From positions 23,560,001 to 23,624,000 of the forward strand of contig CM022671.1 of the NCBI GenBank assembly GCA_012295275.1: a stretch of 64,000 nt of DNA. Reading direction: 5' to 3'. Positions 1,345 through 22,300 of this stretch are shown here, piece by piece (within the stretch, counting starts at the first letter, position 1; each line of letters starts with the position of its first letter). The stretch comes from Chrysomallon squamiferum. Taxonomy: Eukaryota; Animalia; Mollusca. Under the pieces are notes generated by a model. The model was not told the DNA's origin. It did not search any database and worked only from the letters and a program-made list of their open reading frames with translations. The position numbers and the translations under genes are program-made.

Positions 1345-4300
1345 GTGTAGACAGCAAAGCGAACCAAGGAAGACCACCTTCTTCTCTAGCCTTGTCAGTG
1401 CCGGTCTCAACTGGTCATTTAGGTAAATCATTAATTATTTTTGCTGGAGTTTGGTTTATGTAGATTGTGTTGATTAACAGTTTATCTTTTCCCAAGTTTT
1501 AATTTTTACTTCGCATTAGTTCACAAATGACATGCATTAGGTGAGATACTTAAAATATGAATGTATAGAAAAAACTGATACATTCTATTAATGAAATTAA
1601 TTAACATTAACCGTAGCATTAGAAACATAAATGGCATAGTTATTTGCATCAAATACTAACATACCAAAAATTGTTAAAGGCAATGCATAATGCTAATTAG
1701 CTTTGTTCATATATCAGTGATTTAATCTGGTTCCACAGCTAGTAAAATTTGGCATTAATATAGGCAATAGCTATGTCAGTGTACAGATGGGATAGTGACA
1801 TGTATTTCAGATCATCAGACTAATTGTTGTACACATGACAGAAAAGTAATGATTATATTTTGGAAGGGGACAGCTGAAAATGTATTTATTTTTTTTAATT
1901 TGCTTAATTTCAGTGATGCTTGGACAGTATTCTACTTAGTAGAAACCAAAATAATGGAAGATAAACAACATAATAACTTTTGTACCTACTTCAGAACTTG
2001 TATTTTTCACTATTTGATTCAAGAAACACGGTTACATTTTGATGATTTTATGTAAATTATTAAATTGTAGGGTTATCCACCACTACAGCAGCAGTAAGTG
2101 ATGGCACTGTTAGTACATCGTCGTCAACTCAGCTGCAGTTACAGCTGACAAAGACTGAAACAAAACCTGTAGTGACAAGTGGAACAACACAGTCCATTAA
2201 AACACCTGTCTGTTCATCGTGAGTAATGTGCATTTCACAGATAATACTTAAAACATGGTTCAAATTACATTGCATCTCACTATTACATTTACGATTTATA
2301 GCATTTTTATGTTCTGAAAAAATTGTGAAATAATTTTTCATATAAAAAAAACTTTCGAACAGCTTTTTGTTTAAATAGATCAGTGAAAATGTATTACATT
2401 ATAAGAATATCTTAAATTTTATTATTAATTTTTTTTAATCAGTGCTGGCAACAAACCATCATTATCTGCTGTTTATGAAAATACTATTGGTTCTCAAGAA
2501 GCGATTGTTGAACGTGCTAAACAGGTAAACACAATATTCTGTTAGTTTTTGTTGAAAAATAAAGAAATAATTTTTTTTTTCTATAATAAAATGTTTTATA
2601 TTCAAGGAAAACTGGGGGAGGGGTTGGGTGTGTATTTTTATAGAAATAATTAAGACTACAAAAGCCACATACTCATTCTGAAGAAAGATTTTAAAATAAC
2701 TTTTTTCAATTACATTGTGGCTATATAATTAGCATTTCTGCTTCCACTTTCTTCTTCCTGTTGATAGTGGCAATGTTAAATGCAACATTTTTAAATTTTA
2801 TTTTGACAGACTTTATATTTACAAGGTCCTGAAAATGTCTTGAGTAGTTAAAAGAACAAAAAACAAAATGTTAAAATTTCACAATAGGACTTTCTGAAAT
2901 TTTTTGAAAACTGCATTATAAAAAAAATGTTTTTTAAAATTTTGTGTAGGAAGCACAAGTTATGCAACGTGTTGCTGATCTTAGAAAAAATGGCTTGTGG
3001 TCTGCTAGACGTCTTCCAAAGGTTCAAGAACCACCCAGAAATAAAGGTCATTGGGATTACTTGCTAGAGGAAATGACATGGCTGGCTGCAGATTTTGTAC
3101 AAGAGAGGAAGTGGAAGAAAGCCTGTGCTAGAAAGGTGCATATTTACCGTTGCTATAAAGATGTTGAAAATAAGTTTAAAACATCTGAATGATGTATTTT
3201 AAATTTTAAATTACTCTATCTAATGGCTGTGTATATATATATATATATATATATAAAATATATTTAATGTAGTGTTATATTAATAATCATTTTTACTTTT
3301 TGCAGATTTCAAACATGGTTGCAAAACATTTCAGAGAATTGGAGCAAAAGGAGTTGAAAGCAGAAAAAGAGGAGGCCCAGAAACTAAAGAAAATTGCCAG
3401 CCAAATGACCAAAATCATAAAAGAATTCTGGACTAACATTGAAAAGGTACAGTTTGATTTTTATCATTTAGAAAAACAAATTATGCAGTAAGTTTTTATT
3501 TTTTTTATGCCTAAAAAGTTAGCAATTTCACAATCCATATGGTCAGTTACCGAGACTCTTCATCTGATGTGACTAGACTTAAAAACCTGACCATAGAGAA
3601 AACAACCTGGATTTCCTCTGCGTTAATTTCATATAAATTAAACTGGGATTTTAGGATTACATTGGTATCCCAGAAACGAAAATTTCTTGAAAAGGATGCA
3701 ATAATAAATTTTTACAAAATTTTAATTGTTTCTACCAAACATTTGCATTCAATAAAAAAACAATTATATTATGATAAACGATTGTGTATCAATGCAGGCA
3801 TTATTTCAGTGATATTCCATTTTTATTACCACAGGTTGTGCAGTATAAACAGCAAAGCAGGCTTGAGGAAAAGAGAAAGAAAGCTTTGGATATGCATTTG
3901 AACTTCATTGTAGATCAAACTGAAAAATACTCAACTTGGTTGACTGCTGGTCTGCAAGGAGAGGACAGTAATGTGAAATCTTCTGTTAGTGAATCCATGC
4001 CAACATCACCTACACAGTCCAGTGAAGTAGAAGATGGTGAGTTGGGTTAAACGTTTAGTCACTTTGTTGATAATCTGTTATTCTGTTCCTCTTTCCCTAC
4101 TTTACAAGTATAATTTCTCTTTTTTTTTCCCCCTTTAGTGTCAAAATTGTCCACACATGTTTTTACTTTTTGTTGTAGTTGAATTTCATCCAGTTGGTAC
4201 AGCTAGTGATGATGAAGAAACAATAGAAAAAGAAGAAATAGAATCAGGAATGGATGAAGTGAGTGCCATTTATAAATGTACAGATTGTTTTCTCGTTTTA

Positions 4301-19300: not shown

Positions 19301-22300
19301 TGTATATGTATATAAACCTTTTTTTTTTTTTTTTAACTTTTTTTTTTAAATTGTGTTTAAACTAAATTATAAGTGTAGGTGGAAATGTTGCACTTTTTTT
19401 TTTAATTAATGTTTTCTATTTTAGTCTGGTAGATCTTCACCCTTTGTTCCAATCAGCCAAGCTAGAGCAGTTTCTCCATTTCAGGTCATCAAGACATCCA
19501 TTAACACTTCCACATCATCAATCTCTGTTCCTCAAGCCTCAACCTCTGTAACAGCTGGTAAGATATCTTTAATAATAGTGTAGCAGCTTTTCTTTGTCAG
19601 TAGATTTGATACCACCCAGAAATTAATTTGAAAAAAAGCAGCAACAAGAAATTATATGACGCAAATGTTCGGGATGTTTCAGGATGTCATAAAATAACCT
19701 TACAGAACACAGAATGTGTGTGACATCAACCTATACTTGCATCCAATTGCATTTCATCTTCCATATGTTTTATTTTATTTTATTTTTAATTACATTACAG
19801 GACCTGTACCATTGAAGTTGGGTGTTATGGGTCAGCCACATTTCAGTCAGTCATCAATACCAGCCCTGTTAACAGGATCACGTAACACAGTATCCATGTC
19901 AGTCACAACACCAGCAAAAGTTATTCCTCGGCAGCATATACATGGTCAGTGATTTGTGCTTAATCCATTTCAGTCCATTTCTTTAAATGATAAAAATCTA
20001 ATTCAGCAAAAAGTGCAAGTGTTTCCAGTATTTCTGATCTTAATCCTTGTGACAGAAGCCCATCTAGATTACAACTTAATTAATGAAGCTATATATTTTT
20101 AAACTAATTGTTTCCATCTGTTCAGGGAATGTGGCTTATTTAATATTGTTGTGTAGCTAATTGTGCAAAACAACTGAATAAATGAGCCAATATTGAACTG
20201 CTTAGTTGTATCCATGTGGGTTTCAATAGCCCATATGTTCTAATCTATGCAGATAAATTGCTATATTAAAATGTATGTGTGTACTTGTAAATATTTTATC
20301 TTGGTATAAGTGATTCCATTTTCATATATTGTAGGTGTCATTAGCAGTACTACTACTCCCATGACATCACAGCCTATCACAGTGCAAATTCAACAAACAG
20401 AACAAGGAACTCGCTTGATGATCCCTACAGGACAACTCTCACAACTTCCTGGTTTTTATTTTACTTTTATTTCATATCCACTACAATTGATTATGAATAA
20501 GTATGTAGAATAATACTTTAAAAAAAAATTCAGAAAACAGTATAATTTAAAATACAAATAAGATTCCCGATTCCTAATTTTTATGTAATACTTAACTTTG
20601 TGTTATTTTGTATTTAGGCATCATTCAACATTCATTCGAACACTTCAAATGAATGTTGGCATTTTCTGAAAAAAGAATGCAATTTTATACATTACTAATG
20701 TCATTAATGAGGAATAATTATTTTTTGACTTTCAGCTGGTCTAATCCAGATTGTACAAACATCAAGTGGACAGCAACTGATAGCTACCTCAACTCCTTCC
20801 ACACCAATCCAGCCTGTGATACCAGTTCAGAATACTACTTCTGTTCCTAACAGTACTTCAGTTTCTCTTAGCTCTTTAGGTAATTTATCACTAATTTTGA
20901 AATTTTATATGTGTAATAAAATTCAACTGATCTTGAAATTTCTCTTCTTAATATTCTTATTATTTTTGTTGGTTTGGTTTGTTTCATTTTTTTAAACTTG
21001 GAAACACTAGAAGAAGATTAACGTAGCCCACAGAATAGCAGACTGGTAGTTCATTATATTCAGGGATGGTTGTGTTTTATTTAAGTAATTTTTCTGCTAA
21101 TGTTTTATGTATAAATGGGTTTTGTTTATTTTTTATTTTATTTTATTAATATTTTTTGGTTGGATGTTTTTTAAATATTTGTAGTTTGAATACTTTACAT
21201 TAAAATTTCATGTACATAATATGGATAGACGCTTTGATTTGGAATTCATATGCATAACACTGAACACTAAACATAAAAATAAATATGAAATATCAACATT
21301 ACAGTGAATGGCCCTACAACAGCCATTGCACAGGTTGTCAGTACAGCAACAGTGACATCAACATCATTGATGTCGCAGGTGAAGACTACTCCATCAATAC
21401 AGCTTCCTTTAGGCCATGTATTGCCAGCTCAGAAACCTGTAATGCGTGTCACTCCAATGTCCACAGCTCCTGGTGTTTCAATTGCTGCTGCTCGGACTCT
21501 GCAAAGTGTTGTCTCTAGGATCCCATCACCAGGTAAATTTTGCAAAAAAACAACAACCATAAAACTGTTTTGTTCAAAATAATAAAGTTTATGAAGTAAC
21601 TGGTGTTGAGATCCTGATTTCCAGCTTGTCAGCTGTGGCTTGTTGGCATGAAAATCTCACAGAATGAAAACATTTCTGATCCACCGATTTCAGAATGATG
21701 ATATTGGTCTACAGAAATGAAACATAAAATAACTTTTTAAATTGGAATTCAGTTGTCTGTTTTATATAGAGCATTTTAGCAATGCAGATACAAGTAAACA
21801 TAATTGTTGATGGAGCTTAATAATGAGTTACTGTAATTAACAAATTATTGAAGAAAAACTACAAAGAACATTACATACTAAATATGAACTAACAAAACCA
21901 GTCAGAATAAACAAGTCATTTATATCAGACTTAATTTTTTTTTTTTTTAAATTTCAAGAACTGAAAAATACAAAACATGAAAAATGTAAATTGAGATTCT
22001 GATTTCCAGCTTGTCTGTGTGACTTGATGGCATGAAAATCTCAGAGATAAAAACCACATCTGATCCACCAATTTCAGAAGAACTGAAATTATCTCAGAAA
22101 TGGGACACCAGCAACAGACACACACACACACACACATGTATAGAAAAGTATATAAATCAGTTGTATGTATCATTGATGTAAGATGGATTATATTTTATTT
22201 TTTTTTTTTTTTTTTTTAGTTGTAACTACCTCTGTGGCAGATGCTACAAAATTAAGAGAACAAGAGACATCTGCTAAAATAGCATTAGCAAAAAGTGCTG

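What the first reader, a model, noticed from the sequence alone, without database searches (positions are those of the whole stretch)
3538..22110. domino introns host an expanding, multi-family box H/ACA snoRNA array with several RNAs per intron
Seen: about 17-18 sense-strand, 117-134 nt two-hairpin units with ANANNA and ACA/ATA boxes. They form family A (5 copies), B (8), C (3) and singletons. Copies are conserved against unalignable flanks and show compensatory stem changes (ggccat/atggcc to ggtcat/atgacc; atctgt/acagat to gcctg/caggc; agataa/ttatct to ggacaa/ttgtct). Established: vertebrate introns usually carry one snoRNA each. As I recall, Drosophila dom carries intronic H/ACA clusters, and human SRCAP and EP400 host SNORA30 and SNORA49. 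Inference: domino is an ancient snoRNA host, and this lineage amplified its own guide families into polycistronic introns, linking expression of the H2A.Z remodeler to rRNA pseudouridylation. These RNAs are probably unannotated.
Basis: partly seen in the sequence, partly recalled or inferred. Interest (0 to 1): 0.85.

Follow-up and report, generated by a model that had tools for sequence, protein, structure and literature searches.

The report
Domino introns host 19 H/ACA snoRNAs
Eight introns of a chromatin-remodelling gene (domino) in a likely mollusc hold 19 copies of small two-hairpin RNA genes, up to eight in one intron, that likely guide uridine-to-pseudouridine changes in ribosomal RNA; fruit-fly domino is a known host of the same kind, but its guides are predicted to be different ones.

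Summary
Confirmed and extended. Stems covary. No copy lies elsewhere in the window or on the minus strand. C2 and singleton U2 are conserved in a second species.

Family A's 3' pocket pairs 13 bp with the 28S site of human Psi4522, the SNORA27 target. B likely matches Psi1847/1849 (SNORA32-like), S1 is SNORA1-like, and C is predicted to hit an 18S uridine not listed as modified in human. Three introns hold 4, 8 and 2 copies, and RNA contigs splice the first two as single introns.

This layout is known: Drosophila dom is a described snoRNA cluster host. However, no intronic unit here fits four fly dom target sites, so the host is shared and the cargo is not. Mature RNAs are not shown. The scan has noted similar multi-snoRNA introns in other invertebrate genomes. 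New member of a known kind.

The parts
2950..39024 (+). Host gene domino (SRCAP/EP400 family); coding exons from the HSA exon onward (further 5' exons lie upstream)
   Evidence: Pfam HSA, SNF2-rel_dom x2, Helicase_C x2 and a weak Myb/SANT hit; 53% identity to a scallop 'helicase SRCAP-like'; splice joints in two RNA runs for 2522-21303; the 3' end is read from the sequence only
2663..2790 (+). S1, SNORA1-like H/ACA unit, alone in intron 2524-2949; 3' pocket pairs 13 bp around the site of human 28S Psi4441
   Evidence: Rfam SNORA1 E=3e-4; pairing; the site base is C in the 4 non-host references that matched, so the target in this organism is untested
3538..3664 (+). U1, singleton H/ACA unit, intron 3447-3834; target unresolved (best hit is the human 18S Psi1347-equivalent site, matched by 11 of 40 nulls)
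   Evidence: no relevant Rfam match
5828..5959 (+). A1, alone in intron 5648-6037
6577..6710 (+). A2, first of four A copies in intron 6455-8581; 3' pocket fits the 28S Psi4522-equivalent (SNORA27-like)
7262..7395 (+). A3
7805..7938 (+). A4, inside the recent 543-bp tandem duplication
8348..8481 (+). A5
9806..9928 (+). B1, degenerate copy: no ANANNA hinge, ATA box, 5' pocket lost, 3' pocket still fits the Psi1849-equivalent
14252..14369 (+). B2 (both pockets fit)
15316..15436 (+). B3 (both pockets fit)
15933..16054 (+). B4 (one mismatch next to the target in the 3' pocket)
16488..16610 (+). B5 (both pockets fit)
16839..16957 (+). B6 (5' pocket fits the Psi1847-equivalent with 10 Watson-Crick pairs; 3' pocket diverged); a B-like hairpin end is seen in a second species
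17000..17118 (+). B7, 42 nt after B6
17276..17401 (+). B8; its 5' hairpin aligns to the Rfam SNORA32 consensus (weak, E=4)
19185..19309 (+). C1, alone in its intron, ATA box; 3' pocket fits the 18S U1315-equivalent
20132..20258 (+). U2, new singleton: two hairpins, non-canonical hinge, ATA box; target unresolved
   Evidence: fold z -5.98; 20164-20258 is 83% identical in a second species on the contig that carries the next exon
21607..21727 (+). C2
   Evidence: 21606-21716 has 15 differences in 111 nt in a second species, against 52 in 239 for the adjacent exon on the same contig
21991..22110 (+). C3, second C copy in intron 21533-22219

Best explanation
The domino gene carries 19 intronic two-hairpin units with H and ACA/ATA boxes in three tandemly copied families plus three singletons, and these are likely box H/ACA snoRNA genes, made as passengers of the domino pre-mRNA, that guide rRNA pseudouridylation. 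Shown: structure, orientation, intron position, covariation, pocket complementarity and second-species conservation of C2 and U2. From established H/ACA biology: core proteins bind the hairpins, the intron is spliced and debranched, and exonucleases trim up to the bound RNP; each pocket flips out a target uridine about 14-16 nt from its box. Predicted targets: A = 28S Psi4522-equivalent in the peptidyl-transferase region; B = 28S Psi1847 and Psi1849 equivalents; S1 = Psi4441-equivalent; C = an 18S U1315-equivalent. Inferred: in the three multi-copy introns trimming from the two ends cannot free inner copies, so an endonucleolytic cut in the AU-rich spacers followed by trimming is the likely route (about 0.6), as required for the fly clusters. 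Copies arose by local tandem duplication and are drifting apart in which pocket they keep (B1 the 3' pocket only, B6-8 the 5' pocket only).
For: Covariation: B 94% of cells paired and 9 double-sided changes, 0 of 500 shuffles; A 89%, 1 of 500; C 83%, 0 of 500. A 3' pocket: 13 Watson-Crick pairs at 14 nt from the ACA box in 5 of 5 copies, best site in the rRNA set, 0 of 40 nulls. The same guide strands occur in the Rfam SNORA27 consensus, whose target is 28S-4522 (PMC6466398 table); that site is 98% modified in human (PMC6182160 table). C 3' pocket 0 of 40 nulls. S1 matches Rfam SNORA1. All strong model hits are on the + strand inside dom introns. C2 is better conserved than its neighbouring exon in a second species. 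RNA contigs join across 6452-8580 and 9666-17559.
Against: No mature small RNA is shown: only contigs were available, and RNA contigs also cover intron stretches without units. Every Rfam match is below its gathering score (SNORA27 E=0.39, ranked below SNORA35 E=0.045; SNORA32 E=4). Only 2 of 13 pockets beat all 40 nulls, and I drew the pockets after seeing a first scan. B's two targets are marginal: joint score reached by 4 of 100 nulls; the 5' pocket site is top in 3 of 4 references; the 3' pocket site is top in none of 4 when only B2-5 are used; its spacing of 13 nt is short. Targets were tested on non-host rRNA. The S1 site base is C in those references. 6 of 19 units fold at z above -2. 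No processing signal was found in the spacers.
Confidence: 0.82

Rival explanations
1. Only the end copies or a few copies mature; multi-copy introns yield long RNAs capped by snoRNAs at both ends (sno-lncRNAs) and most inner copies are silent duplicates.
For: Two snoRNAs in one intron can give sno-lncRNAs (PMC11028025 passage; a SNORA25-SNORA32 example in PMC4234469). No RNase III-type hairpin or strong recursive splice site lies between copies. B1 is degenerate and A3-A5 are recent duplicates.
Against: Inner copies keep boxes and pockets while flanks have decayed to background in 38 of 41 pairs. Tightly packed fly dom snoRNAs have expression values, from below 1 to 838 TPM.
Confidence: 0.12
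2. The units are a small dispersed repeat (MITE or SINE) or neutral tandem repeats that only look like snoRNAs.
For: No genome was held, so dispersal could not be tested genome-wide. Some copies share flanks.
Against: No further copy in 64 kb and no strong minus-strand hit. Contig depth in a same-species DNA run is 6-14.5 over unit bins against 6.4-8 for single contigs, while other bins reach 36-61. Exact pockets for conserved rRNA sites and conservation in a second species.
Confidence: 0.03
3. Some units (A 5' pocket, C 5' pocket, U1, U2) guide spliceosomal snRNA modification as scaRNAs or act as orphan or chaperone RNAs and not as rRNA guides.
For: These pockets are conserved among copies, or between species for U2, yet have no rRNA match above the null.
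Against: No snRNA sequence was available to test; many H/ACA RNAs have one idle pocket (own knowledge). This would apply to a subset only.
Confidence: 0.25

Closest known systems
Drosophila melanogaster dom snoRNA cluster (Psi28S-3316a-e, Psi28S-3378, Psi18S-841a-d, Psi18S-1389a/b, CD51a-c; PMC13228274, passage and supplement rows)
   Same: Same host gene family, sense-strand intronic H/ACA paralog arrays, several RNAs so close together (gaps of 11-33 nt) that they must share introns.
   Different: Different predicted targets: no intronic unit here fits the 3316, 3378, 841 or 1389 sites, and the fly RNA named for A's site (Psi28S-3436a) lies on chrX (numbering mapped by me). Fly copies of two families alternate; here each multi-copy intron holds one family with 42-4323-nt spacers. 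No C/D snoRNA was found here.
SNORA27/ACA27 (Rfam RF00443) and yeast snR42
   Same: The 3'-hairpin guide strands and target (28S-4522; yeast Psi2975 by snR42, equivalence from own knowledge) match family A.
   Different: Rfam score 18 bits against a gathering score of 64. A's 5' pocket has no significant rRNA match, whereas SNORA27 also guides 3694. The human host is RPL21.
SNORA32 (RF00421) and SNORA1 (RF00408)
   Same: B's 5' hairpin and S1's 3' hairpin share guide strands with these consensus models. That these RNAs guide 28S-1847 and 28S-4441 is recalled; both sites are listed as pseudouridine in human.
   Different: Both matches are below gathering. B is predicted to add the neighbouring 1849 site with its second hairpin. 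The human host of SNORA32 is TAF1D.
Human EP400 hosting SNORA49 (PMC12824223)
   Same: A domino orthologue hosting an intronic H/ACA RNA.
   Different: One RNA in one intron; no Rfam SNORA49 or SNORA30 match in the window.

Membership tests
box H/ACA snoRNA | Hairpin-hinge-hairpin-tail structure of about 120-140 nt | tested here: met
   lengths 118-134 nt
box H/ACA snoRNA | ANANNA in the hinge and ACA 3 nt from the 3' end | tested here: met
   H box in 17 of 19, ACA in 16 and ATA in 3; not met for B1 and U2; true RNA ends are not known
box H/ACA snoRNA | Bipartite pocket complementary to rRNA or snRNA, target about 14-16 nt from the box | tested here: met
   Met for A 3' (13 bp, 14 nt) and C 3' (14-16 nt), each 0 of 40 nulls; marginal for B; base-dependent for S1; no target for U1, U2, A 5' or C 5'
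box H/ACA snoRNA | Accumulates as a stable small RNA bound to dyskerin, NOP10, NHP2 and GAR1, and directs pseudouridylation | not testable with these tools
   Only contigs were available
Rfam SNORA27 / SNORA32 / SNORA1 | Score at or above the family gathering threshold | tested here: not met
   18/64, 19/60 and 44/70 bits: they work like these families but are not filed as members
Drosophila-type intronic H/ACA cluster | Several H/ACA genes within one spliced intron | tested here: met
   4 units in 6455-8581 and 8 in 9669-17560, each skipped as one joint in 2 RNA runs of one study (57 further joints were not shown); the intron with C2 and C3 is read from the sequence
Orthologue of the fly dom snoRNA set | Same guide families and targets as fly dom | tested here: not met
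   No intronic unit fits four fly target sites, while the control site returned A copies; no Rfam match to those families; rests on my mapping of fly numbering
MITE/SINE | Dispersed, high-copy, both orientations | tested here: inconclusive
   Not met within the window or by contig depth; genome not held

The most novel reading that the evidence does not exclude
domino has stayed a snoRNA landing pad since before flies and molluscs split while swapping its whole cargo. In this lineage single-family arrays are splitting their two guide pockets among paralogs, and family C, possibly an offshoot of B, installs an 18S pseudouridine that humans lack. The eight-copy intron would be a ready substrate for finding the unknown animal endonuclease that frees clustered H/ACA RNAs.
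Probability: 0.3. Interest if true: 0.55.

Novelty: new member of a known kind. Interest (0 to 1): 0.33.

Why it matters
It adds a lophotrochozoan case of fly-type multi-snoRNA introns, against the one-per-intron rule of vertebrates and silkworm (PMC3089462, PMC11028025 passages). It also gives a clean example of a shared host gene with unshared snoRNA cargo, as the 'constrained drift' model predicts (PMC3511168 passages). It supplies testable pseudouridine sites and annotation for a group that Rfam's thresholds miss. It does not reveal a new mechanism, and nothing here shows regulatory coupling between H2A.Z remodelling and ribosome modification.

Tried and rejected
No whole genome was held, so no genome-wide dispersal test. 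A 28S primer scan of viral contigs gave 0 matches; the metagenome scan gave 114 loci, none known to be the host's own rRNA. One search used a structure that I had mis-registered for family B and is void; it was repeated. A first relaxed scan timed out. The rerun recovered 7 units among 8 plus-strand hits with an H box, against 4 minus-strand hits; it missed most known units and found no new strong H-box unit in later dom introns. A C/D scan of 31 introns gave no candidate; the SNORD27 hit at 14572 (E=4.9) was rejected. No convincing recursive AG|GT site among 15 and no clean spacer hairpin. Alternative B 3'-pocket targets (the 18S 296-equivalent and a site near 18S-141) were considered and not preferred: the references did not fit the first and the spacing was too short for the second. 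A 28S target for the U2 3' pocket (7 pairs plus a weak side) is not significant. RNA contigs ending at 22103 are no evidence of an RNA end, because a DNA contig ends there too. Huang et al. 2005 was not held. Searches for a prior description of mollusc domino snoRNAs listed none; subscription papers, one image-only supplement and genome annotations were not searchable. B-C common ancestry is only weakly supported (cross-model E=2e-4 and 8e-4; mean identity 0.53).
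Full report
Host. The + strand gene is domino (SRCAP/EP400 family). Of 7 exon translations scanned, one hits HSA, two SNF2-rel_dom, two Helicase_C, one Myb/SANT weakly and one nothing. That last exon is 53% identical to a scallop 'helicase SRCAP-like' protein, one of 2 hits among 300 candidates, so the organism is likely a mollusc or a relative. 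Contigs of two RNA runs from one study splice 15 listed introns, including 6452-8580 and 9666-17559 as single joints (57 further joints were not shown). No genome was held.

Observation. Repeat search, self-BLAST and alignments give families A (5), B (8) and C (3). The singleton U1 at 3538 is real. Two more were found: S1 2663-2790 (Rfam SNORA1, 44 bits, E=3e-4) and U2 20132-20258. The 19 units are 118-134 nt and lie in 8 introns, 76-170 nt from the 3' splice site for the last unit of each; three introns hold 4 A, 8 B and 2 C copies with spacers of 42-4323 nt. An ANANNA hinge is present in 17 of 19 and ACA in 16, ATA in 3. 13 of 19 fold at z<=-2 against 3 of 60 controls. On the RNAalifold structures, paired cells are 94% (B), 89% (A) and 83% (C), reached by 0, 1 and 0 of 500 shuffles, with 4 doubly changed pairs in each family; these shuffles ignore relatedness. 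Mean unit identity is 0.83, 0.71 and 0.67 against flank means of 0.46-0.55 and a background of 0.47. Three of 41 pairs share a flank, including the 543-bp duplication around A3-A5. Covariance models find all 16 members on the + strand and no further member in 64 kb; the best minus-strand scores are 26 bits or less.

Selection. Contigs of a second species were laid on 14200-22200 (8 of 106 pieces shown). C2 aligns over 111 nt with 15 differences on the same contig as the preceding exon (52 differences in 239 nt), with the intron between them unaligned. U2 aligns over 95 nt with 16 differences on the contig of the next exon. Two contigs end a B-like hairpin at 16883. A, S1 and U1 were outside that stretch. 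In a same-species DNA run, depth over unit bins is 6-14.5 against 6.4-8 for single contigs, so there is no sign of a high-copy family at 85% identity or more.

Targets. Eukaryotic rRNAs were fetched from metagenome contigs; none is the host's. Human numbering was anchored with the modification table of PMC6182160 (passages): 13 of 14, 4 of 4 and 6 of 6 positions carry the expected base. Of 13 pockets scored against 40 resampled rRNA sets, two beat all nulls. The A 3' pocket pairs 7+6 Watson-Crick bases at 14 nt from the ACA box in all five copies with the Psi4522-equivalent; this site was identical in all 7 matches among the fetched loci. Rfam's SNORA27 consensus shows the same guide strands (E=0.39, second to SNORA35), and SNORA27 guides 28S-4522 (PMC6466398 table). 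The C 3' pocket fits an 18S U1315-equivalent, which the human table does not list. For B the two pockets fit uridines 2 nt apart, the Psi1847 and Psi1849 equivalents, and the 5' hairpin resembles SNORA32 (E=4). This is only likely: single scores were reached by 15 and 20 of 40 nulls, the joint score by 4 of 100, and the 3' pocket site was not top in any of 4 references with B2-5. B1 keeps only the 3' pocket and B6-8 only the 5' pocket. S1 pairs 5+8 bases around the Psi4441-equivalent, but that base is C in the 4 references that matched. U1, U2 and the 5' pockets of A, C and S1 have no significant rRNA match; snRNAs were not tested. The pockets were drawn after a first scan, which favours positives.

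Mechanism. Most likely the units are H/ACA snoRNA genes co-transcribed with domino, assembled on the pre-mRNA, released by splicing, debranching and exonuclease trimming (PMC11028025 passages), and used as pseudouridylation guides. Inner copies of multi-copy introns need an internal cut; I infer endonucleolytic cleavage in the AU-rich spacers, but found no RNase III-like hairpin or strong recursive splice site. The rival is that these introns give snoRNA-capped long RNAs. Expression of mature RNAs is not shown: RNA contigs also cover intron stretches without units.

Comparison. PMC13228274 names dom as a well-characterised snoRNA cluster host (passage). Its supplement lists 15 snoRNAs on the + strand at chr2R 21,325,218-21,334,299, around a dom mRNA site at 21,328,768, some only 11-33 nt apart; I did not see the gene's boundaries. 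Intronic H/ACA clusters are described as the Drosophila pattern (PMC3089462 passages). Mapping fly site numbers onto the fetched 28S (my inference) puts A's site at Psi28S-3436, whose RNA 3436a lies on chrX. A scan of 1-27800 for pockets fitting the four fly dom H/ACA sites returned four rows, at 2502-2573 and in the exon at 21414, none in a unit, while the control site returned A copies. Human SNORA27 and SNORA32 are hosted by RPL21 and TAF1D; EP400 hosts SNORA49 (PMC12824223 passages); SNORA30 in SRCAP, and the targets of SNORA1 and SNORA32, are recalled. So the host is shared across fly, this animal and human, but the cargo is not, as expected from snoRNA mobility among broadly expressed genes (PMC3511168 passages). 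Searches listed no paper on mollusc domino snoRNAs. Earlier unchecked notes of this scan report multi-snoRNA introns in other invertebrates and none for domino. Other papers opened: PMC10557570, PMC5699541, PMC4234469, PMC9454646 and PMC6984369 (passages only).

Verdict. A real, likely functional intronic H/ACA snoRNA array; a new member of a known kind. Interest 0.33.

Noticed in passing
window 26053-27801 and 31159-39024 (+): domino appears to have two alternative 3' ends: a long terminal exon with its own stop, and a downstream exon series with a weak Myb/SANT hit at 32625. This resembles the fly DOM-B/DOM-A isoforms (recalled).
   Followed up: partly
window 7259-8472: A recent 543-bp tandem duplication (96% identity over 672 nt) that carried A4 and A5: array growth caught in the act.
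   Followed up: yes
window 12190-13130 (-): Broken reading frames in the unit-free part of the 7.9-kb intron look by eye like a pogo/Tigger transposase remnant; Pfam found nothing in the two pieces tested.
   Followed up: partly
window 10432-11753: Contig depth in a same-species DNA run rises to 36-61 against about 7 elsewhere, suggesting a dispersed repeat in this intron that is unrelated to the snoRNA units.
   Followed up: no
window 15236-15315 and 15857-15933: A 70-80-nt upstream flank was duplicated together with B3 and B4 (87% over 241 nt), and acceptor-like AG|G sites lie ahead of several B copies (for example 14506, score 7.3); likely leftovers or chance.
   Followed up: partly
window 51901-52145 and 54077-54292: A two-copy direct repeat of about 245 nt at 71% identity outside domino, not examined.
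   Followed up: no
L051 2660-2963: A group I intron inside a eukaryotic 28S gene among the fetched rRNA loci.
   Followed up: no
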